From IMG/VR virus record IMGVR_UViG_3300045988_102084, positions 1 through 15,726 of that record: a stretch of 15,726 nucleotides of DNA. The stretch is one strand, 5' to 3'. The notes under the pieces were generated by a model. That model was not told the DNA's origin and did no database searches. It saw only the letters and a list, made by a program, of their open reading frames with translations. The stretch comes from a virus. Below are positions 1,692 through 15,672 of this stretch, one piece after another (within the stretch, counting starts at the first letter, position 1; the number at the start of each line of letters is the position of its first letter). Position numbers and translations under genes: made by a program.

Positions 1692-2474
1692 TTGGCTAAG
1701 AAAAAACCAAAATTCAGGAAAAGCTATGAAGATCGAAGAAAACTAGAAAACTATATCAAAAGTGCACGTAGAACCGCGACAATTGCCAGAAAACAAGGCC
1801 AGGAAGTCTATTTTACCGAAGTCAAAACATTATCGGATTTTTCTTCACGTGATGAATTTAATAAATATATCAACAGTATCAAGCGTTTCAACCGGGAAAA
1901 CCGTTATTATGTCAATCGACGAGGTGTAGCCTTTAAAGTGCAGGATATAAAAAAGGCCAATGAACTTATTAAGCAGGAAAACAAGATCCGAAGAAAACAG
2001 CGCAAGCAGATATCCAACTTAAAGCAGACCATAGGCGGGGAATATAACACCGTTAAATTAAACAAGGCGCTGCGCGTGGTAAAAGATGAACGTGAGCGTA
2101 TTTTTGAAGATTTAAGACCGGTGAACATTGAAAGCTACTCATCCGAACAGCAACTAAAAAAGCGCATTTCTAGCTTAAGAAGAAATGTAAGAAATCCGGA
2201 GCTAAAGAACAAGAGACTGCGTGATAATTATTTGAAGGCCTTGCGTAACCAGAGGAAACAGGGCGCTATGACTTCCAAACAATTTAGAGAGATGTCAAAA
2301 AGTATCAAAAGACTTTCTGTATCGGATTTTACAAAATGGTTTTATCAGGAAGAAAGCAGCGTGGATGCCTTCAATTTGTGTTATGTCAATTTCATGGAAA
2401 CCGAGATCAAACAATCCTTTCAAGAAGTAAATACAAGTCTTTCCAAATTTGTTAGAAGGACAGTTAAAAACTAG
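1692..2474 (+). CDS. Terminal protein (phi29 p3-like), the primer for DNA replication
   Basis: ORF track 1683..2474. TTG 1692 is preferred (GGGAGGTGG 5 nt upstream); GTG 1683 is the alternative. At about 260 aa it compares with about 266 aa for phi29 p3. The segment LSDFSSRDEFNKYINSIKRFNRENRYYVNRRGV resembles remembered phi29 p3 LDSFETRAQFNKWKEQASSFTNRANMRYQFEKNAYGV. The stop overlaps the polymerase start (TAGTG). Confidence 0.8.
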   Translation: MAKKKPKFRKSYEDRRKLENYIKSARRTATIARKQGQEVYFTEVKTLSDFSSRDEFNKYINSIKRFNRENRYYVNRRGVAFKVQDIKKANELIKQENKIRRKQRKQISNLKQTIGGEYNTVKLNKALRVVKDERERIFEDLRPVNIESYSSEQQLKKRISSLRRNVRNPELKNKRLRDNYLKALRNQRKQGAMTSKQFREMSKSIKRLSVSDFTKWFYQEESSVDAFNLCYVNFMETEIKQSFQEVNTSLSKFVRRTVKN

Positions 2475-4288
2475 TGAAAGTCTATTCATGTGATTTTGAA
2501 ACCACGACCGACCCTAACGATTGCCGAGTGTGGGCCTGGGGTGCCAGTGAAGTTGGAAAGATAGAACACAAGCTTTTTGGCAATTCAATTGAGACATTCA
2601 TGGAATGGATTGAGGGTAAAAACATAAAATGCTATTTTCACAATCTGGCATTTGACGGTGAGTTTATCATTAGTCATTTGTTGAAAAACGGCTGGAATTA
2701 TTCGAAACATCCAAAAGAAGGATGTTTTCACACGATCATTTCCAATCTGGGACAGTGGTATGCGATTGAAATATATTGGAAAGTCAGGAAAAAACACACG
2801 GTTAAAACGACCATCTGGGATAGTTTGAAGCTGATTCCTTTCAGCGTGCGACAGATCGCGCATGACTTCCATTTACCAATTCGAAAGTTACACCTAGACT
2901 ATGATGCAAACAGAGAACCCGGGCATCTTCTAACTCGGGAAGAAAAAGAATATCTATTTAATGATATTGACATTGTGGCCATGGCTTTGGAGCAGTTGTT
3001 TGATGAAGGCTTTAGCAAGATGACAGCGACAGGTGCCAGCTATAAAGCCTTTAAGGAAAGCCTTGGCGATTCTTTCAATAAACTATATCCGGGTCTAAGT
3101 TTGGAAAGCGATGCTGATATACGCCAGTCGTACAGTGGTGGCTTTGTTTGGGCCAATCCAAAGCACAAGGAAAAGCTGATTTTGAATGGGATGGTATTCG
3201 ATGTAAACAGCCTATATCCATCGCGTATGTATTTCGAATTATTGCCTTATGGATTGCCGACGATCTTTGAAGGCCAGCCAAACCCGGAGATCTTAAAAAC
3301 GCGCCCTTTATGGGTTGCCAATGTCAATTTTGCCTTTGACATCAAAGAAAATCATATACCTTGTATATCACTGGATAAGGTGACCATATACAATGGATCC
3401 AAAGAATACATTGATTCATCCCATGGGGAAGTTGTCAGCATGACACTGACCAGTGTGGACTGGGAACTCATACAACATCAATATGATGTGTATGATGTGT
3501 CTTTCAATGGTGGGTATTATTTTCGTGGCAATGTAGGCGTGGCACGACCCTTTATAGACGAGTGCATGGAAGTCAAGAAAAAAGAAAAAGGTGCCAAGCG
3601 TTTTATCGCAAAACGAAAAATGAACTCTGTGTATGGTAAGTTTGCAACGAATCCGGATGTGACACCAAAAATACCCTATCTTGATGAAGAAGGTGTGCTG
3701 CGGATGAAAGAGCCAAAAATCAAGGTGTGGAATCCGGAAACAGACGAAATCACAGAAGAAATTGATACGGAAATGCGCGATCCAATTTATTTGCCATATG
3801 CAACTTTTGTAACAGCCTACGCACGCAAGTATACGATATTAACCGCCCAGAAAGTAGGAATCGATCGCGTGGCCTATATTGACACTGATTCTATCCATCT
3901 GGTAGGAACGGATGTACCGGATGCGATCAAGGATGACATTGATGATAAAGAACTTGGCTATTGGGGACTGGAAAGCGTATTCAAACGTGCCTATTTTGTA
4001 GGCGCAAAAACCTATATCGAAGAAATTGAAATTTCTTACAATGAATATAATGACAGACAGCGTGCTTTTATCGAAGATCACGATAAGAAGGACAATCTTG
4101 TGTATCTGCTAGACGGTATCGCATACCGTTTGAATGTCAAGTGTGCAGGGATGACGGAAAGTGCCAAGCAGAACATTACATTTGAGACGTTCAAGGTTGG
4201 AACCAGCGTTCCGGGCTGTTTGAAAAAAAGTCATGTGCCGGGCGGTGTTGTATTATACGATGCACAATTCAAGATCAAGAGACGATAG
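2474..4288 (+). CDS. Protein-primed family-B DNA polymerase (phi29 p2-like)
   Basis: GTG start overlaps the terminal-protein stop. Motifs: ExoI YSCDFETTT, ExoII HNLAFDGEFI, ExoIII YLFNDIDIV, motif A DVNSLYPS, motif B KRKMNSVYGKF, motif C YIDTDSIH, and VKCAGM near the C-terminus. It aligns collinearly with the remembered phi29 polymerase. Confidence 0.95.
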   Translation: MKVYSCDFETTTDPNDCRVWAWGASEVGKIEHKLFGNSIETFMEWIEGKNIKCYFHNLAFDGEFIISHLLKNGWNYSKHPKEGCFHTIISNLGQWYAIEIYWKVRKKHTVKTTIWDSLKLIPFSVRQIAHDFHLPIRKLHLDYDANREPGHLLTREEKEYLFNDIDIVAMALEQLFDEGFSKMTATGASYKAFKESLGDSFNKLYPGLSLESDADIRQSYSGGFVWANPKHKEKLILNGMVFDVNSLYPSRMYFELLPYGLPTIFEGQPNPEILKTRPLWVANVNFAFDIKENHIPCISLDKVTIYNGSKEYIDSSHGEVVSMTLTSVDWELIQHQYDVYDVSFNGGYYFRGNVGVARPFIDECMEVKKKEKGAKRFIAKRKMNSVYGKFATNPDVTPKIPYLDEEGVLRMKEPKIKVWNPETDEITEEIDTEMRDPIYLPYATFVTAYARKYTILTAQKVGIDRVAYIDTDSIHLVGTDVPDAIKDDIDDKELGYWGLESVFKRAYFVGAKTYIEEIEISYNEYNDRQRAFIEDHDKKDNLVYLLDGIAYRLNVKCAGMTESAKQNITFETFKVGTSVPGCLKKSHVPGGVVLYDAQFKIKRR

Positions 4289-4303: not shown

Positions 4304-4492
4304 ATGAAAAATAAAGCCTATGACTATATCAATCAATTTACCAGAGATCACTATAAGCGATATAATATCATCGTGCCAAAGGATGACACCGTTCTAATTG
4401 AAAAGCTGGAAGAATACAAGAAAAAGCATCAGCTTTCAAAATTTGTTCGTTTGTGCATCCGAAGGCAAATTGAAATTGACGAAATGAAATAA
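4304..4492 (+). CDS. Small ribbon-helix-helix (CopG/Arc-like) DNA-binding protein, putative transcription regulator
   Basis: AGGTGA-N4-ATG start. The pattern KRYNIIVPKDDTVLIEKLEEYKKKHQLSKFVRLCIRRQI fits a beta-strand, helix, helix layout (compare CopG KKRLTITLSESVLENLEKMAREMGLSKSAMISVAL). It is the last gene before the late region. Confidence 0.5.
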   Translation: MKNKAYDYINQFTRDHYKRYNIIVPKDDTVLIEKLEEYKKKHQLSKFVRLCIRRQIEIDEMK

Positions 4493-4504
4493 ACATAGTA
4501 TATT
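4476..4504 (+). promoter_or_regulatory. Near-consensus promoter (TTGACG-17 nt-TATATT) straddling the stop codon of the RHH gene
   Basis: -35 TTGACG at 4476-4481, an exact 17-nt spacer, and -10 TATATT at 4499-4504. The predicted transcription start is about 4510-4512. Confidence 0.55.
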
Positions 4505-4510
4505 TATCAC

Positions 4511-4690
4511 GAAGGGGAGCAATTTCAAAATGGTTGCTTGTTCCGGGGTGCATCATGGTGAAACATGCCGGGATAAAATTACACCTCATGCCGTGTCATT
4601 CATTTAATTGCATCCTTTTCAATCTCATCTTTCTTAGTTTTTTCTAAGATCAAAAGCAGAAAGGCGGAAAACGCCTTTTTGTTTTGCTTT
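4511..4690 (+). ncRNA. Candidate structured noncoding RNA (about 170-180 nt) bounded by promoter 4476-4504 and terminator 4652-4690; possible pRNA-like RNA or terminated leader
   Basis: No long + strand ORF; only a 25-codon micro-ORF at 4530-4607.
Helices visible by eye:
- GAAGGGGA 4511-4518 with TCCTTTTC 4613-4620
- GAGCAA 4517-4522 with TTGCTT 4534-4539
- TCCGG 4542-4546 with CCGGG 4568-4572
- GCAT..GGTG 4550-4560 with CACC..ATGC 4582-4591
- TCTTAG 4632-4637 with CTAAGA 4644-4649. Confidence 0.35.
4652..4690 (+). terminator. Intrinsic terminator closing the early region and noncoding unit
   Basis: GGCG 4663-4666 pairs with CGCC 4672-4675 around a GAAAA loop. The stem is extended by A/U pairs (AAAGCAGAAA with TTTTTGTTTTGCTTT), followed by T-runs at 4676-4690. 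Confidence 0.65.
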
Positions 4691-4710
4691 TATGGAAAAT
4701 GTGATATATT
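4684..4710 (+). promoter_or_regulatory. Putative late promoter for the scaffold/capsid genes: extended -10 (TGaTATATT) with a poor or mis-spaced -35
   Basis: TG at 4702-4703 and TATATT at 4705-4710. The only -35-like hexamer, TTGCTT 4684-4689, is 15 nt away and lies in the descending arm of the terminator. The scaffold RBS starts about 13 nt downstream of the -10. Confidence 0.45.
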
Positions 4711-4734
4711 ATTAAATTAAAGAGGTGATACTGA

Positions 4735-5013
4735 ATGACACAAGACGAGATGAACACTCTGATAGGCCAGGTCCTGGAACAGGACGACCGCGCCGAGCGC
4801 TCAACATTACTGGATACGTTACGCGGTGAAGTTGGATTATTGTTTGAAAGCAACGAAACATTGACAACAGAAAACACCGACATAAAAGCCAAGAATGAGC
4901 GACTGGTAGAAGCCAATTCCAGCTTATTCATGAAGGTTGGTTTTGATGCGGAAAAGGCAAAAGAAAAAGAGAAAAAGAACACGAGTGATTTTAACATCAA
5001 GAAAATGTTTTAA
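4735..5013 (+). CDS. Scaffolding protein (phi29 gp7-like)
   Basis: 92 aa, with AGGTGA-N6-ATG. ERSTLLDTLRGEVGLLFESNETLTTENTDIKAKNERLVEANSSLFMKVGF parallels remembered phi29 gp7 [50 protein letters not shown]. It sits immediately upstream of the capsid gene. Confidence 0.8.
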   Translation: MTQDEMNTLIGQVLEQDDRAERSTLLDTLRGEVGLLFESNETLTTENTDIKAKNERLVEANSSLFMKVGFDAEKAKEKEKKNTSDFNIKKMF

Positions 5014-5035: not shown

Positions 5036-6385
5036 ATGGCTAAAACAACAGCAAAAGACGTAGCGAAGGCGATTCAGACCAATCTGGGACTGGAAGCTGA
5101 ACCAACTGGACAGCAGGTAGCACATTCTATGTACATGGCCGCATCCGAAAATTTACGTGCCAGCGTGGGCGACCCTTTGGAAACCAATTCACTGGACTTC
5201 ATGAATGGGTTACTTGAATATCCAGAAACACTTGCGACCGAATGGGTGACTTTAGCAACACGCATCGGGCGCACCATTGCGCACAAAAATATTCTTTCCA
5301 ATCGTTTGGCACCATTTAAGATGCAGAACATGCCTTTAGGCTATACGATGGAAGAATACTTTGTCGAAGCAGCCAAAGAGCATGCGTACGATCAGGAAGC
5401 ATCGGAAACAAATGTATTCAAACGTGAATTACCAGACATCAAGACAGCGTTCTACATCGTAAACCGAAAAAGCTTTTATAAGAGTACGGTGACAGACGAT
5501 GACTTGCGTAGTTACTTCGTGACTTGGGATGGTGTCAACAGTTTGATCGCGAAGATCGTGGATAGCTTGTACAATGGTGACAACAGAGATGACTACAATT
5601 ATATGAAGTCCGCCCTTACAACGCATTATGAAAATGGCTTTATGAAGATCATTAACTTAGCAAACGCTGTGACGGACACAGCAAGCGCTAAGGATCTGGC
5701 AAGACAATTGACGATGTATGCATCCATTTTGACTGAACCTCATAATGAGTATAACGCTATGGGCGTAACAAAACAAAATGAATTGGATGATTTGTACATC
5801 ATTCTAACAGCTGAATCCAACAGCTTCTTAAACATTGACTGGTTATCACAGACTTTCCAGCTGGACGTGGCCAACTTCAAAACTCATGTTTTGGTGATTC
5901 CTACACTTCCAGAAACGGACAACGGAAAAGTGGAAGCCATGTTAGTGGATCGTGAGATCTACCGCGTATTTGATCAGAAATACAATGTCAATACACAGTA
6001 CAACGGTGAAGGATTGTACTGGAATTACTGGTTACATCACTGGGAAGGTATTGCCACAAGTCGTTTTGCCAATGCGATTGCCTTTGTAAGCGGCAGTGCT
6101 GAAAACAAGGTGTCAGGTATTACTGTCAATCCGGATGCCATTTCAATCAAAGCGAATGAAGCCAAAAAAGTAAAAATGAGCATCCAGAAAACGGGAATTG
6201 ATGCATCTGTTAATGTAACAGCACAGTCAAGCGATCCAAATATTACAGCTACGATCAATGATGATAAAACAGAAATCACGATCACAGCCAATGAAAGCGC
6301 AGAAGCAGGATTGAAAACAGTGACTGTCAAGGACACGGTGGAAACAAGTGTTCATACGGTGCTTCAAGTTGTCGTTGTAGCGTAA
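5036..6385 (+). CDS. Major capsid protein (phi29 gp8-like) with a C-terminal Ig-like (BIG2-type) domain
   Basis: 449 aa versus 448 aa for phi29 gp8. GLYWNYWLHHWEGIATSRFANAIAFVSG matches remembered gp8 [28 protein letters not shown]. The C-terminal roughly 95 aa (GITVNPDAISIKANEAKKVKMSI...TVTVKD) look like a bacterial Ig-like domain. Confidence 0.92.
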   Translation: MAKTTAKDVAKAIQTNLGLEAEPTGQQVAHSMYMAASENLRASVGDPLETNSLDFMNGLLEYPETLATEWVTLATRIGRTIAHKNILSNRLAPFKMQNMPLGYTMEEYFVEAAKEHAYDQEASETNVFKRELPDIKTAFYIVNRKSFYKSTVTDDDLRSYFVTWDGVNSLIAKIVDSLYNGDNRDDYNYMKSALTTHYENGFMKIINLANAVTDTASAKDLARQLTMYASILTEPHNEYNAMGVTKQNELDDLYIILTAESNSFLNIDWLSQTFQLDVANFKTHVLVIPTLPETDNGKVEAMLVDREIYRVFDQKYNVNTQYNGEGLYWNYWLHHWEGIATSRFANAIAFVSGSAENKVSGITVNPDAISIKANEAKKVKMSIQKTGIDASVNVTAQSSDPNITATINDDKTEITITANESAEAGLKTVTVKDTVETSVHTVLQVVVVA

Positions 6386-6390
6386 AAATA

Positions 6391-6420
6391 AAAAGGGCTT
6401 GCAAAAGCCTTTTTTCTTTT
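6391..6420 (+). terminator. Intrinsic terminator after the capsid gene
   Basis: AAAAGGGCTT 6391-6400 pairs with AAGCCTTTTT around a GCAA tetraloop (6401-6404), followed by a T-rich run to 6420. Confidence 0.75.
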
Positions 6421-6427
6421 CTATAAT
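6399..6427 (+). promoter_or_regulatory. Near-consensus promoter TTGCAA-17 nt-TATAAT, with its -35 built from the terminator loop
   Basis: -35 TTGCAA at 6399-6404, a 17-nt spacer at 6405-6421, and a perfect -10 TATAAT at 6422-6427. The predicted transcription start is about 6433-6435. Confidence 0.6.
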
Positions 6428-6433
6428 AAGGGT

Positions 6434-6560
6434 GTAAGGTATACCAGGCATAATAAGTACACTTACCTTACTTTTACCCCTTTTAAGATATTTGAGTCCT
6501 TTCTAATCGCTTTTGAACCATTGGAAAACAAGAGAGTCACTTGCCAAAAGTGGCTTTTTT
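6434..6560 (+). ncRNA. Candidate small noncoding RNA (about 125 nt) between promoter 6399-6427 and terminator 6533-6560
   Basis: The interval contains no ATG. A perfect 8-bp helix (GTAAGGTA 6434-6441 with TACCTTAC 6464-6471) starts at the predicted 5' end, and a terminator hairpin sits at the 3' end. An alternative pairing, TCGCTTTTG 6507-6515 with CAAAAGTGG 6545-6553, competes with the terminator stem. Confidence 0.35.
6533..6560 (+). terminator. Intrinsic terminator inside the capsid-holin intergenic region
   Basis: GTCACTT 6536-6542 pairs with AAGTGGC 6548-6554 around a GCCAA loop, followed by TTTTTT at 6555-6560. Confidence 0.6.
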
Positions 6561-6569
6561 GTTTATTAT
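6541..6569 (+). promoter_or_regulatory. Promoter for the holin/tail/lysis block (TTGCCA-17 nt-TATTAT), with its -35 inside the terminator hairpin
   Basis: -35 TTGCCA at 6541-6546, a 17-nt spacer, and -10 TATTAT at 6564-6569. The holin RBS follows at 6585-6590. Confidence 0.5.
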
Positions 6570-6594
6570 TAGAATAGAAAAAAGAGGTGATAGC

Positions 6595-6849
6595 ATGGAA
6601 ACAGCAAACGCAGTTGTTCAATTGATTTCTACCGTTGGTTTTCCAATTGTCATGTGTGGCGTCATGGGATATTATGTCAAGTATTTAAATGACGAGCACA
6701 AAGAGGAAATCAGCAAAATAAATGACCAGCATCTAGAAGAAGTCAAAAAATTAACAACGACCATTGAAAACAATACCATTGTCATGGAAAAGCTAAGCGC
6801 AAAAATTGACACCATTTTAGATTTAAAAGGAAGTGATGAAAATGTCTGA
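6595..6849 (+). CDS. Holin-like single-pass membrane protein (BhlA/UviB-like architecture)
   Basis: ATG 6595 has AGGTGA-N4 upstream; the TTG 6541 extension in the ORF track covers the terminator and promoter and is rejected. In 84 aa there is one N-terminal TM (VVQLISTVGFPIVMCGVMGYYV) followed by a charged coiled-coil tail, as in BhlA/UviB-type holins. Confidence 0.5.
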   Translation: METANAVVQLISTVGFPIVMCGVMGYYVKYLNDEHKEEISKINDQHLEEVKKLTTTIENNTIVMEKLSAKIDTILDLKGSDENV

Positions 6850-7994: not shown

Positions 7995-8606
7995 ATGATC
8001 TGGTATTTAGATATTAAAGGTGAAAAAATAATGGGTGCGTATTCTGAAAAATTAAATGAATCCATGATTCAAATGGATTTAGAAGATACATTTGATCGAA
8101 CTCGAAATATTTATAAAGATGGTGAAATTGTGCCTATTGATGATAATCAAAGGCGTACAATTTACAATGAAGAAGTATATTTTGAAGAGGAAAACGCATT
8201 ACAAGCCATGATGACAGCCAGTGCTAGAGCTTCATTTTTAAACGAATTGGATGATACTGAAGCGGCTAAACTTTCTTTATGCTATGATTCTTGGACAACA
8301 GGCAAAGCGTATAAGGTGGGCGATCGTGTATTATGTGATGGGAAGTTGTGGAAATGTCGTCAAGCGCATACATCGCAGGAAAACTGGAAACCATCTATCA
8401 ACACAGCCAGTCTATGGGAAGTGATCAATGTAGAAAACGCCGGAACCTTGGAAGATCCAATTCCATACGATCAGACCATGACCGTTTACAATGGAAAATA
8501 TTATCTGGAAGAGGGAATCATCTATAAATGTATTCGTGATTCTGGCCAGCCTTTATATGCAACGTGTGCCAGTTTAGTTGGAAACTATTTTGAGGTTGTA
8601 GAATGA
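7995..8606 (+). CDS. Protein with a CBM5/12-like carbohydrate-binding motif; putative tail accessory or second receptor-binding protein
   Basis: ATG 7995 follows AGGTGA-N5. An alternative ATG at 8031 also follows AGGTGA, with N7. YKVGDRVLCDGKLWKCRQAHTSQENWKPSINTASLWEVI fits the chitin-binding type-3 pattern (Y.vGD.V.y.G..y.C.q.H.s...W.P.....LW). Confidence 0.55.
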   Translation: MIWYLDIKGEKIMGAYSEKLNESMIQMDLEDTFDRTRNIYKDGEIVPIDDNQRRTIYNEEVYFEEENALQAMMTASARASFLNELDDTEAAKLSLCYDSWTTGKAYKVGDRVLCDGKLWKCRQAHTSQENWKPSINTASLWEVINVENAGTLEDPIPYDQTMTVYNGKYYLEEGIIYKCIRDSGQPLYATCASLVGNYFEVVE

Positions 8607-8800
8607 CATGTCAATTTAAAGCCTTGGAAAATATGAACAAACCGGAAGATATTCCATACTCATTGCCGGAAGGACTGGAAAAAGAGTTTTATCAAGAATT
8701 TTACATGCGTTGCATCAAGATCTTTCATGCGCATGGGATGAAGGAACGCGCGGATGTATGCGAACAGAAACTAAAAGAGTTAGGGGACATGTTTTCCTAA
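8603..8800 (+). CDS. Hypothetical protein (65 aa)
   Basis: ORF track 8603..8800, with ATGA overlap onto the upstream stop. The alternative start is ATG 8633. No recognisable motif. Confidence 0.45.
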   Translation: MTCQFKALENMNKPEDIPYSLPEGLEKEFYQEFYMRCIKIFHAHGMKERADVCEQKLKELGDMFS

Positions 8801-8808
8801 CTCTTTTT
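8774..8808 (+). terminator. Hairpin plus T-run overlapping the stop codon of the 65-aa ORF (weak terminator or mRNA-stabilising hairpin)
   Basis: GAGTTAGG 8777-8784 pairs perfectly with CCTAACTC 8796-8803 around an 11-nt loop. The stem is extended by A:T pairs and followed by TTTTT at 8804-8808. No promoter follows before the essential downstream genes. Confidence 0.4.
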
Positions 8809-8827
8809 ATTAGAAAGAGGTGAAACA

Positions 8828-12280: not shown

Positions 12281-13168
12281 ATGTTACCAACCGATTTTAT
12301 ATGTGATGAAAAGACAAGCCTTGAACAACTATACCTAAGCTATCTTTTCAATATATCATTGAATATGTTTGAATATTCAGACATGCCGAAAAGCGTGGAC
12401 ACGTTTTATTTGGAATTTATCATGCAGACAAGAGGACTATGCATCATTATTGATGATGAACGTTTTGGCCCGACCGCCTTAGAATGTACCATAGGTGGAA
12501 AGATCAATCATTATTACATGCCGACCGCCTATCGTGGCGTGGATCCAACGGGTGAATTGACTGGTACATATAACGCGGAGGATGTGATTTTGTTTAAAAA
12601 CTCCCCTTTATATGCACCTTTACTACCTCAATTGCAATACTATGCCAAACAGCTGGCACTTGCTGCCGAGACCATCAATGTCAATCTGGATGCACAATGG
12701 ACACCCTACATCATCCAAGGGGATAAACGCATGTTAAACCAGTTCAATAATTTTATGAAAAAGGTGCGAGCTGGTGTACGTGCGATCTTCACCGCTAAAA
12801 ACCTGGATTTAATGAGCATGCTACAAGTGCTGCCGACACAGGCGCCATTCGTGGCCATGGATGTCAATGATGTCAAACAGACCATTCTAAGAGAGTGCAT
12901 GACATTCTTAGGCATTGACAATGCCAACCAAGACAAGAGAGAACGTGTACAGAGTGCTGAAGTCTATGCCAATAATACACAGATCATTGCATCGAGAAAT
13001 ATCTGGCTGGCCGAACGTCAAAAAGCGGTGGATGCGTTCAATCAGAAATTTGGAACCAATGTAAAAGTGAGTTTTCGAGCGTATAATGATATGCTGGACA
13101 TGATGGAAGTTAACGACATGAGCCTAGAAGAAATGGCCGGTCTGGAAGAAGGTGATGAAAATGTATAG
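12281..13168 (+). CDS. Portal / head-tail connector (phi29 gp10-like upper collar)
   Basis: ILRECMTFLGIDNANQDKRERVQSAEV...FGTNVKVSFR parallels remembered gp10 [27 protein letters not shown]...YGLNVKVKFR. The ATG directly abuts the tail-knob stop (TAAATG). Confidence 0.9.
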   Translation: MLPTDFICDEKTSLEQLYLSYLFNISLNMFEYSDMPKSVDTFYLEFIMQTRGLCIIIDDERFGPTALECTIGGKINHYYMPTAYRGVDPTGELTGTYNAEDVILFKNSPLYAPLLPQLQYYAKQLALAAETINVNLDAQWTPYIIQGDKRMLNQFNNFMKKVRAGVRAIFTAKNLDLMSMLQVLPTQAPFVAMDVNDVKQTILRECMTFLGIDNANQDKRERVQSAEVYANNTQIIASRNIWLAERQKAVDAFNQKFGTNVKVSFRAYNDMLDMMEVNDMSLEEMAGLEEGDENV

Positions 13169-13900: not shown

Positions 13901-14653
13901 ATGACATATGAACAGTTTAAAAACATGGTATTAGGAAACGTGTATGACATTGACCATGCCTATGGTGGTCAGTGTTGGGATGGATATGCCAAATTTTGTA
14001 TTGAAAATGGCATACCTTTTGATCATTGCACAGTCAGCGGGTATGTAAAAGATATCTACAACAACCGCAATTCAAACAATCTTTTAAAATATTTCAATGC
14101 GATCTTTACGATGCAGCCGGGTGACTTGTGTTTCTTCAAAGAAACGCCGAACTGGACACCATACAACCATGTGGCGATCTTTGACCATGACAATGGTGAC
14201 GGGTATGGGTGGTTTTTAGGCCAGAACCAGGGCGGAAAAAATGGCGCGTTTAACCTGGCAAAACTACCCTATTCAGCAACATTCTATTATGCATTCAGAC
14301 TGAAAAACATTGACAACAGCAGTAATCAGATTTTACCAGTCAATGAATTGATTGATCAGATACTCCATGAAGGAAGTTATGTCACTTCTATTCCTATGAA
14401 AATAGGTAATCAGGGATTGCAGGTAAAAGAAGGTGCCTTGTGTTGCTATCTGGCCGAATTAGGCGGTTGGTATCCTATTTCATTGGTTGAAGAATATGAT
14501 CATTCGGATGGTGCATTGGATAATGTTTTGATGAATACAAATGCACGTGTGTATCTAACACGTTCACGTGTTGAAAAAGTAGATATTCCAACCAACCGTT
14601 GCAAGATAAATGGAATCTGGGTAAACTGTCAACCATTGATTGAGGTAGCCTAA
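13901..14653 (+). CDS. Endolysin: N-terminal CHAP amidase/peptidase plus a C-terminal putative cell-wall-binding domain
   Basis: CHAP signature YGGQCWDGYAKFC (catalytic Cys) with downstream QPGDLCFF and YNHVAIFD (catalytic His). The C-terminal roughly 110 aa have no clear motif; an SH3b-like role is only a guess. AGGTGA-N4-ATG start. Confidence 0.8.
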   Translation: MTYEQFKNMVLGNVYDIDHAYGGQCWDGYAKFCIENGIPFDHCTVSGYVKDIYNNRNSNNLLKYFNAIFTMQPGDLCFFKETPNWTPYNHVAIFDHDNGDGYGWFLGQNQGGKNGAFNLAKLPYSATFYYAFRLKNIDNSSNQILPVNELIDQILHEGSYVTSIPMKIGNQGLQVKEGALCCYLAELGGWYPISLVEEYDHSDGALDNVLMNTNARVYLTRSRVEKVDIPTNRCKINGIWVNCQPLIEVA

Positions 14654-15672
14654 TGCCTGAAAAGCGTTTTCATTTCTACGTTACTTCACGTGTGAAATCA
14701 TACAATAAATTTATCAATTTCATTGTGGGTGGACGTGGAATTGGTAAAACGTATGGTTTTAAAGTGGACAGTATCAAGCACTATAAAAAGACGGGAAAAC
14801 AGTTTTTCTATTTTAAACGTCACACGACCGACATGAGCACCATTGACACATTTTTCAATGATATTGCACATGAATTTCCAGAGGATGAACTAAGTGTCAA
14901 AGGTGGAAAAAAGTACAATAAATTTTATATCAATGATGAAATTTGCGGCTATGCAATGCCACTATCACGATATAAAACATTAAAATCATCGTCCTTCGTG
15001 AACGTGGACACCATTATTTTTGATGAGTTTTTACCGGAAAAAGGCGGATATAATTTATACATACCAAATGAAGTAGAATTATTTTTAAATGCCATTGATT
15101 CCATTTTCAGACAGCGTGAAGGCCATGTATATCTACTGGCCAATAAAACAAGTATATCTAACCCGTATTTTAATTATTTTAATATCAGTGTGAACCCGGC
15201 CAAAGAGTTCAACACCTTTAAAGGATCCATGATGAAAGAGCAGATACTAATACAGAACTGTGGTGATGATTATGATAAAGGCTCGCAGGAAAAATCATCC
15301 TTTCAAAAACTGATAAGCGGTACACGATATGGTGATTATAACTCCGGTGAATTTGCCTATGATACGAATGATTTTATCATGCGGATGACACCAAATGCGA
15401 AATATATTTGCACAATATACGCAGATGGTATTTACTTTGGATGTTATGTAGATTTTACCGAAGGGAAAATCTTTATCAATCGAAATGTAAACATGGACTA
15501 TCCAGCTGTATATTCCATTGGAAAAGACATGCGCGAAAATATGATTCTTTCCAAAGGCTGGCGATATGACAGAGTGCTATCTATGATCGTTCGAAATTAT
15601 AGGGTAGGAAATGTTTTCTATAATGATCATAGTACAAAGGATATCCTCAACCGATACCTCAGCCTATTCTAG
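14653..15672 (+). CDS. DNA packaging ATPase (phi29 gp16-like)
   Basis: Walker A NFIVGGRGIGKTYGFKV resembles remembered gp16 NFVIGARGIGKSYAMKV. Walker B is VDTIIFDEF. It is 339 aa versus 332 aa. The start overlaps the endolysin stop (TAATG). The last 31 nt lie in the right ITR. Confidence 0.9.
   Translation: MPEKRFHFYVTSRVKSYNKFINFIVGGRGIGKTYGFKVDSIKHYKKTGKQFFYFKRHTTDMSTIDTFFNDIAHEFPEDELSVKGGKKYNKFYINDEICGYAMPLSRYKTLKSSSFVNVDTIIFDEFLPEKGGYNLYIPNEVELFLNAIDSIFRQREGHVYLLANKTSISNPYFNYFNISVNPAKEFNTFKGSMMKEQILIQNCGDDYDKGSQEKSSFQKLISGTRYGDYNSGEFAYDTNDFIMRMTPNAKYICTIYADGIYFGCYVDFTEGKIFINRNVNMDYPAVYSIGKDMRENMILSKGWRYDRVLSMIVRNYRVGNVFYNDHSTKDILNRYLSLF

What the first reader, a model, noticed from the sequence alone, without database searches (positions are those of the whole stretch)
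4476..4710. Promoter-bounded, terminator-bounded noncoding unit of about 175 nt directly upstream of the scaffold/capsid genes: pRNA candidate or lambda-6S-like leader
A near-consensus promoter (TTGACG-17-TATATT, 4476-4504) fires into about 175 nt with no substantial ORF, ending at a clear intrinsic terminator (4652-4690). A separate promoter then drives the late genes, so the unit looks like a gene for an RNA.

The size matches the 174-nt phi29 prohead RNA, which is essential for the gp16 packaging motor. To my knowledge it has been securely identified only in Bacillus phi29 relatives.

Pairings seen by eye:
- a closing helix, 4511-4518 with 4613-4620;
- a hairpin, 4517-4522 with 4534-4539;
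- an interrupted helix, 4550-4560 with 4582-4591, whose 21-nt loop carries CCGGG (4568-4572), complementary to the upstream TCCGG (4542-4546). This is a pseudoknot-type topology;
- a direct repeat CATGCCG at 4564 and 4587.

Alternative: a constitutive promoter, short RNA and terminator ahead of late genes is the lambda PR'-6S-tR' layout, which implies antitermination control.
Basis: partly seen in the sequence, partly recalled or inferred. Interest (0 to 1): 0.78.

Follow-up and report, generated by a model that had tools for sequence, protein, structure and literature searches.

The report
Prohead-type packaging RNA gene, gut phage
This 180-base non-coding gene in an uncultured human-gut relative of phage phi29 folds like phi29's prohead (packaging) RNA, including two mutually complementary loops that change together, and the papers found here report that RNA class only from Bacillus phages.

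Summary
A sigma-70-type promoter (4476-4504), about 180 nt without a conserved ORF, and an intrinsic terminator (4653-4685) lie between the DNA polymerase/62-aa gene and the scaffold gene of a phi29-like phage.

The unit recurs at the same position in over 100 human-gut contigs that form four sequence clades. All share one fold: a closing helix made by the 5' and 3' ends, a three-way junction, a long arm with a 5'-side internal loop before a 4-bp hairpin with a conserved GUGAAA-type loop, and a short second hairpin.

Covariation is strong. In 73 relatives, 98% of cells pair and 16 pairs change on both sides, against 8.0 +/- 1.5 in shuffles. In 14 sequences of the window's own clade, 5 pairs do so against 1.1.

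The internal loop is complementary to the second hairpin loop in every clade, and the two co-vary: GCAU/AUGC, GUAU/AUAC, UUCAUU/AAUGAA, UUUUC/GAAAA, UUACU/AGUAA. This matches the loop-loop pairing that defines phi29 prohead RNA, and helix order, element sizes and gene position also match.

The Rfam pRNA model does not match, so this is a new sequence family. Function is inferred, not shown. The lambda-6S reading and the micro-ORF are rejected.

The parts
4476..4504 (+). Promoter of the RNA gene: -35 TTGACG (4476-4481), 17-nt spacer, -10 TATATT (4499-4504). It overlaps the stop codon (4490-4492) of the 62-aa ORF.
   Evidence: scores it 10 of 12. In all 82 distinct relatives a TTGnnn-16/18-TAnnnT pair ends 5-6 nt upstream of the first closing-helix base, although the hexamer sequences differ between clades.
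4511..4620 (+). Domain I of the RNA (110 nt). It is the conserved, covarying core, and the predicted 5' end is at about 4511.
   Evidence: A covariance model built only from two other clades finds exactly 4511-4619 at full length (32.4 bits, E about 1e-4). The all-clade model gives 73.4 bits and no other real hit in the window.
4511..4536 (+). A helix, 5' strand. 4511-4524 pairs with 4606-4620 (A4612 bulged), 4528-4533 with 4600-4605, and 4535-4536 with 4597-4598.
   Evidence: predict it. Within the window clade three pairs swap on both sides (4517/4614, 4522/4608, 4523/4607 in L198), and 4519/4611 occurs as GC, GU and AU. G-U pairs at 4514/4617 and 4515/4616 fix the strand.
4597..4620 (+). 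A helix, 3' strand.
   Evidence: Same as for the 5' strand.
4538..4546 (+). C helix, 5' strand. It pairs with 4568-4576 (9 bp).
   Evidence: predicts it. G4545/4546-C4569 becomes U-A in L195 and L201. In the large clade four of the six inner C-helix pairs covary: AU/GC 43:30, CG/UA 39:34 and others.
4547..4553 (+). CE loop (GGUGCAU), a 5'-side internal loop. Its last four bases, GCAU (4550-4553), lie flush against the E helix and are complementary to the D loop.
   Evidence: In phi29 the equivalent AACC (45-48) is also flush against the E helix, which starts at base 49.
4554..4567 (+). E hairpin: 4-bp helix CAUG/CAUG (4554-4557 with 4564-4567) and hexaloop GUGAAA (4558-4563).
   Evidence: The helix covaries in the large clade (CG/UA 65:8, GU/AU 57:16, CG/UA 61:12). 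The loop is GUGAAA, GUAAAA or GUGAUA in all four clades. G4560 is A in 5 of 14 window-clade sequences, which fits a loop position.
4568..4576 (+). C helix, 3' strand. It runs directly on from the E helix with no bulge on this side.
4577..4580 (+). Junction linker AAUU between the C helix and the D hairpin. phi29 has UUU at this place.
4581..4596 (+). D hairpin: helix ACAC/GUGU (4581-4584 with 4593-4596) and loop CUCAUGCC (4585-4592). AUGC (4588-4591) is complementary to CE GCAU.
   Evidence: Pair C4551-G4590 is C-G in 11 and U-A in 3 of 14 distinct window-clade sequences, and is never broken. The other clades carry different but matching loop pairs.
4621..4649 (+). Linker (4621-4631) and a small hairpin (4632-4649) that is specific to the window clade.
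   Evidence: The other clades have an A/U-rich unpaired linker here.
4653..4691 (+). Intrinsic terminator: stem-loop 4653-4685 and U-rich tail. It is the likely 3' end of the RNA and of the early (replication) operon.
   Evidence: The position is kept in all clades with different stems: GGCG/CGCC, GACG/CGUC, CCAC/GUGG, CCCUC/GAGGG. In the predicted fold of the 174-nt phi29 pRNA, domain II is likewise a hairpin ending in UUUU.
4702..4710 (+). Late promoter candidate: an extended -10 (TG-A-TATATT) with no good -35, ahead of the scaffold Shine-Dalgarno sequence and ATG (4735).
   Evidence: Read from the sequence. In the largest clade a full TTGACT-17-TAGAAT sits at the same place. Function was not tested.
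2474..4288 (+). Context: protein-primed family-B DNA polymerase, two genes upstream of the RNA.
   Evidence: Pfam DNA_pol_B_2, 1e-63. It is 43-45% identical to the phi29, Nf and Goe1 polymerases.
4304..4492 (+). Context: conserved 62-aa ORF of unknown function directly upstream of the RNA gene.
   Evidence: No Pfam or PHROGs hit.
12281..13168 (+). Presumed partner: head-tail connector (gp10 type).
   Evidence: Pfam Phage_connector, 4e-50. It is 29% identical to phi29 gp10 from residue 18 and lacks phi29's basic N-terminal segment.
14653..15672 (+). Presumed partner: DNA-encapsidation ATPase (gp16 type).
   Evidence: Pfam Podovirus_Gp16, 2.5e-63. It is 34% identical to phi29 gp16 over residues 8-331, including the C-terminal domain.

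Best explanation
The interval encodes a prohead (packaging) RNA of the phi29 type, belonging to a lineage of uncultured human-gut phi29-like phages.

Proposed mechanism:
1. Host RNA polymerase starts at about 4511 from the promoter at 4476-4504 and stops at the terminator 4653-4685. This gives an RNA of about 180 nt.
2. The first 110 nt fold into a long A helix formed by the two ends, and a three-way junction.
3. One arm of the junction is the C helix, then the CE internal loop, then the E hairpin. The other arm is the D hairpin.
4. The last four bases of the CE loop (GCAU, 4550-4553) pair with AUGC (4588-4591) in the D loop of a neighbouring copy.
5. Several copies thereby close into a ring on the portal vertex of the empty prohead.
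6. The A helices point outward and dock the gp16-type ATPase, which pumps the terminal-protein-capped genome into the head.

Shown here: the unit exists, it is conserved, its helices and the loop-loop pairing are under selection on the + strand, and its architecture and gene position match phi29 pRNA.

Inferred: transcription, that the loop pairing is between molecules, ring formation, prohead and ATPase binding, and the requirement for packaging.
For: 1. Phage context. The window encodes a phi29-type polymerase, scaffold, capsid protein, tail knob, connector and gp16 ATPase. The ATPase is 34% identical to phi29 gp16 over its full length.

2. Synteny. phi29 runs terminal protein, polymerase, small ORFs, promoter A1, pRNA, end of early transcription. 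The window runs 263-aa ORF at the terminal-protein position (no family hit), polymerase, 62-aa ORF, promoter, RNA, terminator.

3. Conservation. The unit is at the same place in over 100 gut contigs in four clades that do not align by BLAST. A covariance model built from two clades recovers the window's copy at full length, at 4511-4619.

4. Covariation.
- On an unfitted alignment of 73 sequences, 98.2% of cells pair. 16 pairs change on both sides, against 8.0 +/- 1.5 in shuffles (0 of 500) and 2-5 in slid controls.
- RNAalifold independently predicts the same helices.
- In 14 distinct sequences of the window's own clade, 98.1% of cells pair. 5 pairs change on both sides, against 1.1 +/- 0.9 (0 of 500) and 0-1 in slid controls.

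5. Loop-loop pairing.
- The CE and D loops are complementary in every lineage with different sequences.
- Three of the five loop pairs swap both bases between the two large clades.
- Inside the window clade, C4551-G4590 is replaced by U-A in three otherwise about 95% identical sequences and is never broken.
- The pairing segment always abuts the E helix, as AACC 45-48 does in phi29.

6. Dimensions match the phi29 fold: C helix about 9 bp, a 5'-side CE loop of 7-9 nt, an E hairpin of 4 bp with a 6-nt loop, a 3-4 nt junction linker, a short D hairpin, an 11-13 nt linker, then a terminal hairpin ending in U's.

7. Not coding. The micro-ORF is frameshifted in all close relatives.

8. Strand. Many conserved G-U pairs would be C-A on the other strand.
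Against: - Rfam RF00044 (Phage_pRNA) does not match the window even at E <= 10 on a 211-nt stretch, although it scores 145 bits on phi29.
- My models do not hit phi29. Common descent with the Bacillus pRNAs is therefore not shown.
- The connector lacks the basic N-terminal segment that a paper title cited in PMC9965433 (Xiao 2005) names as the pRNA-binding part of phi29 gp10.
- For the window sequence alone, the thermodynamic optimum pairs part of the CE loop differently (-35.3 against -31.5 kcal/mol).
- Each lineage's loop complementarity is only modestly unlikely on its own (shuffle p = 0.006-0.13).
- The three swaps between the two large clades may be a single historical event.
- There is no expression or binding data, and the host is unknown.
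Confidence: 0.8

Rival explanations
1. It is a structured non-coding RNA with a different job. For example, it could be a compact pseudoknotted RNA in which the CE and D loops pair within one molecule. Such an RNA might regulate the early-to-late switch, bind a phage or host protein, or act on replication, and resemble pRNA only by convergence.
For: No sequence or model-level homology to Bacillus pRNAs. The connector lacks phi29's basic N-terminus. Sequence cannot tell pairing within a molecule from pairing between molecules. The gene sits exactly at the early/late boundary, next to a conserved 62-aa protein of unknown function.
Against: Every architectural element of pRNA is present in the same order, with similar sizes and the same loop register. 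The phage carries the pRNA-dependent type of ATPase at full length. The arm lengths are unequal: the C helix has 9-10 bp below the CE loop and the D helix has 4 bp. As in phi29, this makes pairing within one molecule geometrically awkward (inference). No Rfam riboswitch, ribozyme or sRNA family matches.
Confidence: 0.12
2. It is a lambda PR'-6S-tR'-like leader. A constitutive promoter makes a short terminated transcript, and a phage antiterminator lets polymerase read through into the late genes.
For: Promoter, short RNA and terminator lie directly upstream of the scaffold and capsid genes. The late promoter after the terminator has no good -35 in the window.
Against: The selection acts on a 110-nt three-way-junction fold and a loop-loop pairing, not only on the terminator. 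The largest clade has a strong independent promoter (TTGACT-17-TAGAAT) after the terminator. No antiterminator-like protein was detected. The same layout in phi29 is the pRNA gene plus the early terminator.
Confidence: 0.03
3. It is only the 3' untranslated end of the early operon: a stabilising structure plus terminator, with no function of its own in trans.
For: It follows the last early gene on the same strand, and its terminator would also end early transcripts.
Against: A promoter is conserved 5-6 nt upstream of the first paired base in all 82 distinct sequences. A 3' stabiliser does not need a junction, an invariant hexaloop or covarying loop-loop complementarity.
Confidence: 0.04
4. The 25-codon micro-ORF (4530-4607) encodes a small protein, and the RNA structure is incidental.
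For: An ATG follows GGGGAG at 4514-4519, about 10 nt upstream.
Against: A 1-nt indel shifts the frame after codon 6 in all eight close relatives checked. L023 has a stop at codon 4. The other clades have no corresponding ORF.
Confidence: 0.01

Closest known systems
Prohead RNA (pRNA) of Bacillus phage phi29 and relatives (PZA, B103/Nf/M2, SF5, GA-1, Goe4 group); Rfam RF00044 Phage_pRNA
   Same: - Encoded by a phi29-like, protein-primed podophage with a gp16-type ATPase and a gp10-type connector.
- Own promoter, downstream of polymerase and small ORFs, at the end of early transcription.
- Length about 180 nt against 174 nt.
- Domain I has an A helix formed by the two ends, a three-way junction, a C helix, a 5'-side CE loop flush against a 4-bp E hairpin with a 6-nt loop, a 3-4 nt linker and a D hairpin.
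- The CE and D loops are Watson-Crick complementary over 4-6 bp.
- Domain II is a linker plus a terminal hairpin ending in U's.
   Different: - No detectable sequence or covariance-model similarity (RF00044 negative; my models negative on phi29).
- The gene is internal and points the same way as the late genes, instead of lying at the left genome end pointing outward. GA-1 and Karezi pRNAs are also non-terminal, according to PMC9965433.
- The D helix is shorter (4 bp against 6) and the D loop longer (8 nt against 5).
- The E loop is GUGAAA, not UUGAGU.
- The partner connector lacks the basic N-terminal tail.
- Hosts are uncultured gut bacteria rather than Bacillus; one contig is binned with a Clostridia genome, which is weak evidence.
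- Function has not been tested.
Syntenic structured RNA of Enterococcus faecium phages vB_EfaP_2/Chl-5, CUB-FM and Athos
   Same: Same slot: polymerase, small ORF, promoter, RNA, terminator, scaffold. The single-sequence fold has a closing helix, a three-way junction, an arm with a 5'-side bulge before a 4-bp hairpin, and a short second hairpin. One compensatory change occurs in the closing helix.
   Different: It is not detected by my models or by Rfam. The available sequences are nearly identical, so the fold and any loop-loop pairing are not tested.
Lambda PR'-6S RNA-tR' late leader
   Same: A promoter, a short transcript and a terminator lie just upstream of the structural genes.
   Different: The lambda unit acts in cis through Q antitermination and needs no conserved RNA fold. 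Here a 110-nt fold and a loop-loop pairing covary, and an independent promoter follows the terminator.

Membership tests
phi29-type prohead RNA (functional class) | Encoded by a phi29-like phage that has the gp16-type packaging ATPase and the gp10-type connector | tested here: met
   Pfam Podovirus_Gp16 2.5e-63, Phage_connector 3.9e-50, Phi29_MCP 4e-81 and the Phi29 scaffold family. BLASTP against phi29 gp16 gives 34% identity over the full length, and against gp10 gives 29%.
phi29-type prohead RNA (functional class) | Small non-coding gene with its own promoter, downstream of the polymerase at the end of the early operon | tested here: met
   Promoter and terminator by consensus scan. The promoter position is conserved in 82 of 82 distinct sequences. 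The micro-ORF is not conserved. The phi29 layout was read from its annotation. Transcription itself was not tested.
phi29-type prohead RNA (functional class) | Secondary structure: A helix formed by the 5' and 3' ends, a three-way junction, a C-E arm with a 5'-side CE loop, and a D hairpin | tested here: met
   Covariation results.
phi29-type prohead RNA (functional class) | CE (right-hand) loop complementary to D (left-hand) loop | tested here: met
   Five different complementary loop pairs across lineages. Three of five pairs swap on both sides between clades. C4551-G4590 is replaced by U-A within the window clade, 11:3, with none broken.
phi29-type prohead RNA (functional class) | The loop-loop pairing is between molecules and closes a ring on the prohead | not testable with these tools
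   This needs native gels or ultracentrifugation of transcripts, trans-complementation of loop mutants, or cryo-EM.
phi29-type prohead RNA (functional class) | Binds the portal vertex of proheads, docks the ATPase and is required for DNA packaging (RNase-sensitive packaging) | not testable with these tools
   There is no cultured phage. The best match to the capsid protein among the phage genome records searched is 35% identical or less.
phi29-type prohead RNA (functional class) | Partner connector carries the basic N-terminal segment that binds pRNA in phi29 (a feature of the partner, not of the RNA) | tested here: not met
   The window connector starts MLPTDFICDEKTSLEQL and aligns to phi29 gp10 only from residue 18 (gp10 residue 27). 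The binding role in phi29 rests on Xiao 2005, as cited in PMC9965433.
Rfam RF00044 Phage_pRNA (sequence/structure family) | Match to the curated covariance model at or near the gathering score (100 bits) | tested here: not met
   No hit at E <= 10 in the whole window or in 4490-4700 with lax filters. No hit in three other clade representatives. The positive control, phi29, scores 145.4 bits.
Lambda PR'-6S-tR' late leader / antitermination unit | The late genes depend on read-through of the leader terminator, there is no independent late promoter, and an antiterminator protein is encoded | tested here: not met
   A promoter follows the terminator (TTGACT-17-TAGAAT in the largest clade; extended -10 at 4702-4710 in the window). 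No antiterminator family was found among the 20 proteins scanned. Read-through itself was not tested.

The most novel reading that the evidence does not exclude
Prohead RNA is not a peculiarity of Bacillus phages. On this reading it is an ancient and widespread component of phi29-like packaging motors that sequence-based searches have missed. This gut lineage would be the first covariation-supported case outside Bacillus. The syntenic structured RNA of Enterococcus faecium phages (cultured and testable) would be another. The motor would then tolerate a connector without the basic N-terminal tail, which implies a different RNA-portal docking mode. The five or more naturally orthogonal loop pairs would also be ready-made specificity codes for RNA ring assembly.
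Probability: 0.55. Interest if true: 0.75.

Novelty: new member of a known kind. Interest (0 to 1): 0.62.

Why it matters
pRNA is the only RNA known to be an essential structural part of a viral DNA-packaging motor, and it is widely used as a building block in RNA nanotechnology. The reviews read here still describe it as unique to phi29 and related Bacillus phages (PMC11476376, PMC5066667). For a lactococcal relative, 'no evidence for a pRNA' was taken at face value (PMC7823558).

A second pRNA-type family that is unrelated in sequence but matches in structure, from abundant gut phages, would do several things:
- It would show that the RNA-dependent motor is broader and older than thought.
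- It gives over 100 natural variants with clear covariation. These define which features are essential: the loop register, the E hexaloop, and the unequal arm lengths.
- It supplies natural orthogonal kissing-loop pairs.
- It raises a concrete question about how the RNA docks on a connector that lacks the known RNA-binding tail.
- It warns that failure of RF00044 or BLAST to find a pRNA is not evidence of absence.

Tried and rejected
- Rfam scans of the whole window and of 4490-4700 at E <= 10. The only hits near the unit are terminator look-alikes such as ctRNA_p42d at 4658-4687, with no pRNA.
- Nucleotide searches against about 50,000 phage genome records, in near and distant modes. No match.
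- BLASTN of the unit against the first related loci. Only the clade about 95% identical matched, so I extracted the region by synteny instead.
- Models R1 and R2 against phi29, the Enterococcus phages and about 45 distant gut phi29-like loci. No hits, so the family as modelled is confined to relatives whose capsid protein is at least about 57% identical.
- Weak second hits of the models (L007 7088-7194; window 6383-6483, minus strand, 12 bits) were judged to be noise.
- The single-sequence optimum for the tip of the C/E arm (GUG/CAU plus UCA/UGA) is rejected in favour of the conserved E helix. The pairing is specific to the window clade, and G4560 varies to A in 5 of 14 sequences.
- The micro-ORF is rejected.
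- A scan of genome collections for a host gave only metagenome-binned contigs (Clostridia and others), which is not reliable.
- Per-lineage shuffle tests of loop complementarity are individually weak (p = 0.006-0.13). I therefore rely on the covariation and the fixed register instead.
Full report
WHAT THE WINDOW IS. All long ORFs lie on the + strand. They are an SSB (1291-1641), a 263-aa ORF at the terminal-protein position (1683-2474), a protein-primed family-B DNA polymerase (2474-4288) and a 62-aa ORF (4304-4492). A 242-nt gap follows. Then come a phi29-type scaffold (4735-5013), the major capsid protein (5036-6385), a holin, a fibre, a lysozyme-domain protein, the tail knob, the connector (12281-13168), the lower collar and a gp16-type encapsidation ATPase (14653-15672). 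The polymerase is 43-45% identical to those of phi29, Nf and Goe1. The ATPase is 34% identical to phi29 gp16 and the connector 29% identical to gp10. No phage genome record searched matches at the nucleotide level, and none has a capsid protein more than about 35% identical. Close relatives are 15-17 kb contigs, and the wider family 14-20 kb, mostly labelled human gut metagenome.

THE OBSERVATION. No ORF of 40 aa or more lies between 4493 and 4734 on the + strand. The + strand RNA folds far better than shuffles (z = -5.5) and the - strand does not (z = -2.3). Consensus promoter and terminator matches are frequent in this A+T-rich window, so on their own they prove little. The weight comes from comparison with relatives.

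RELATIVES. Searches with the polymerase and capsid protein retrieved over 170 loci, and an exact-protein look-up with the 62-aa ORF gave ten more. The gap between the small ORF and the scaffold gene is present in all relatives whose capsid protein is at least about 57% identical.
- These relatives fall into four clades: the window clade, the L006 clade, the L054 clade and the large L015 clade.
- Their RNAs do not align by BLAST, but they share a GGUGAAAC-like motif and the same layout.
- In all 82 distinct sequences a TTGnnn-16/18-TAnnnT promoter ends 5-6 nt before the first base of the closing helix, although the hexamers differ.
- Every clade has a terminator hairpin with a different stem sequence.

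STRUCTURE AND COVARIATION. On an ordinary MAFFT alignment of 73 L015- and L054-clade sequences (A2) I wrote down one structure from inspection.
- 98.2% of 2846 cells form standard pairs.
- 16 of 39 pairs change on both sides, against 8.0 +/- 1.5 in shuffles (0 of 500) and 2-5 when partners are slid by 1-3 columns.
- RNAalifold, given no structure, predicts the same helices, with 31 pairs of which 11 have compensatory changes.
- A covariance model built from these two clades only (R1) finds the window's RNA at 4511-4619, full length, at 32.4 bits and E about 1e-4. It also finds the L006 clade, so the four clades are one family.
- The all-clade model (R2) gives one real hit in the window, at 73 bits.
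- In the window's own clade (14 distinct sequences, about 95% identical) 98.1% of cells pair. 5 pairs change on both sides, against 1.1 +/- 0.9 in shuffles (0 of 500) and 0-1 in slid controls.
- The swaps in the window clade are three in the A helix (L198), one in the C helix (L195, L201) and one in the loop-loop pairing.

ANATOMY IN WINDOW COORDINATES.
- A helix: 4511-4524 with 4606-4620, 4528-4533 with 4600-4605, and 4535-4536 with 4597-4598.
- C helix: 4538-4546 with 4568-4576.
- CE loop: 4547-4553.
- E helix: 4554-4557 with 4564-4567, with hexaloop GUGAAA at 4558-4563.
- Junction linker: 4577-4580.
- D helix: 4581-4584 with 4593-4596, with loop 4585-4592.
- After domain I: linker 4621-4631, a clade-specific hairpin 4632-4649, and the terminator 4653-4685.
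- Conserved G-U pairs fix the strand as +.
- For the window sequence alone the energy model prefers a different pairing at the tip of the C/E arm (-35.3 against -31.5 kcal/mol). That pairing is not conserved, and G4560, which it would pair, is A in 5 of 14 clade members.

THE LOOP-LOOP PAIRING. In every lineage the 3' end of the CE loop, flush against the E helix, is complementary to the D loop. The pairs are:

| Lineage | CE loop / D loop |
|---|---|
| window | GCAU / AUGC |
| L003, L023, L194 | GUAU / AUAC |
| L008, L197, L199, L201 | UGCAU / AUGCA |
| L006 clade | UUCAUU / AAUGAA |
| L054 clade | UUUUC / GAAAA |
| L015 clade | UUACU / AGUAA |

- In A2 three of the five loop pairs swap both bases between the two clades.
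- In the window clade, C4551-G4590 is C-G in 11 sequences and U-A in 3, with no mixed combination.
- Per-lineage shuffle tests are only modest (p = 0.006-0.13).
- The case rests on the repeated co-change and the fixed register.

COMPARISON WITH phi29. The fold of the 174-nt phi29 pRNA has the same order of elements and similar sizes:

| Element | phi29 pRNA | Window RNA |
|---|---|---|
| A helix | formed by the two ends | formed by the two ends |
| C helix | about 9 bp | 9 bp |
| CE loop | 5'-side, last four bases AACC 45-48 abut the E helix | 5'-side, last four bases GCAU abut the E helix |
| E hairpin | 4 bp, 6-nt loop | 4 bp, 6-nt loop |
| Junction linker | 3 nt | 4 nt |
| D hairpin | loop 3' part is GGUU 82-85 | loop carries AUGC 4588-4591 |
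| Linker after domain I | 13 nt | 11 nt |
| 3' end | hairpin ending in UUUU | hairpin with U-rich tail |

The gene order in phi29 is terminal protein, polymerase, small ORFs, promoter A1, pRNA. The window has the corresponding order, with the block pointing the same way as the late genes instead of lying at the genome end.

Differences and negative results:
- Rfam RF00044 detects phi29 (145 bits) but neither the window nor three other clade representatives.
- My models do not detect phi29. Similarity is therefore architectural, and shared ancestry is unproven.
- The window's connector lacks the basic N-terminal segment of phi29 gp10. A paper title cited in PMC9965433 (Xiao 2005) names the N-terminal 14 residues as the pRNA-binding part.

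ALTERNATIVES.
- The micro-ORF (4530-4607) is frameshifted after codon 6 in all eight close relatives checked and stopped at codon 4 in one.
- A lambda-6S-type leader does not explain selection on a 110-nt junction fold. It is also contradicted by an independent promoter after the terminator: TTGACT-17-TAGAAT in the largest clade, and an extended -10 at 4702-4710 in the window.
- A mere 3'-UTR element does not explain the conserved promoter 5-6 nt upstream.
- A structured RNA with another function, using a pseudoknot within one molecule, cannot be excluded from sequence. I give it about 0.12.

LITERATURE. The reviews and genome papers read describe pRNA as experimentally known or predicted only in Bacillus phi29-like phages (PMC11476376, PMC5066667, PMC9965433). 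[quoted passage not shown] For the lactococcal phage asccphi28, 'no evidence for a pRNA' is stated (PMC7823558). Full-text searches found no report of a pRNA in gut or Enterococcus phi29-like phages. The library is incomplete, so earlier work cannot be ruled out.

VERDICT. The unit is a real, conserved, structured RNA gene (confidence about 0.95). It is most likely the prohead RNA of this phage lineage (about 0.8). It is a new sequence family of a known kind of RNA. Function remains inferred.

Noticed in passing
window 6386-6595: There is a second non-coding unit bounded by a promoter and a terminator, between the capsid gene stop (6385) and the holin gene (ATG 6595). It has a terminator at 6390-6415, a promoter-like TTGCAA-17-TATAAT at 6399-6427, about 110 nt with a hairpin, and a second strong terminator-like hairpin at about 6526-6563. 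The RNA 6430-6570 folds with z = -3.1. It is conserved only within the window clade; the other clades have shorter, different spacers.
   Followed up: partly
L001 4572-4838 (Enterococcus phage vB_EfaP_2/Chl-5); also L002 (CUB-FM), Athos, and metagenome loci L077, L080, L081, L084, L093: Cultured E. faecium phi29-like phages have the same slot: polymerase, small ORF, promoter TTTACA-17-TAAAAT, structured RNA, terminator, scaffold. The fold has a closing helix, a three-way junction, an arm with a 5'-side bulge (AAUGUA) before a 4-bp hairpin, and a short second hairpin (z = -3.2). One compensatory change occurs in the closing helix (GTTGAC/GTCAAC against GTTAAC/GTTAAC). My models and Rfam do not detect it. 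CUB-FM annotates a 45-aa CDS (4569-4706) across it.
   Followed up: partly
window 12281-13168: The connector aligns with phi29 gp10 only from residue 18 (gp10 residue 27).
   Followed up: partly
window 4304-4492: The same 62-aa protein, exact in sequence, is listed in 69 index blocks of public assemblies. In the loci inspected from all four clades a small ORF precedes the RNA gene. It has no Pfam or PHROGs match. By eye it resembles a ribbon-helix-helix regulator, which is unverified.
   Followed up: partly
window 4686-4716 and L015 2655-2690: The late promoter after the terminator has a good -35 (TTGACT) in the largest clade. In the window clade it has only an extended -10 (TGATATATT). From my own knowledge, phi29's late promoter A3 lacks a -35 and is activator-dependent, so this resembles it.
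   Followed up: no
window 8764-8816: A near-perfect 14-bp inverted repeat (AAAAGAGUUAGG...CCUAACUCUUUU) lies between the 65-aa ORF (8603-8800) and the lysozyme-domain gene (8828). Rfam scores it on both strands as a chance MIR405 look-alike. It is probably a bidirectional terminator.
   Followed up: no
L197 757-1191: One window-clade contig carries an extra 144-aa ORF inserted between the polymerase and the 62-aa ORF.
   Followed up: no
L016 2200-2700 and L073: Relatives whose capsid protein is about 49% identical have a leftward-transcribed gene directly upstream of the scaffold, as in the phi29 arrangement. The family model gives no hit in the 7 kb held. Their RNA, if any, must lie elsewhere.
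   Followed up: no
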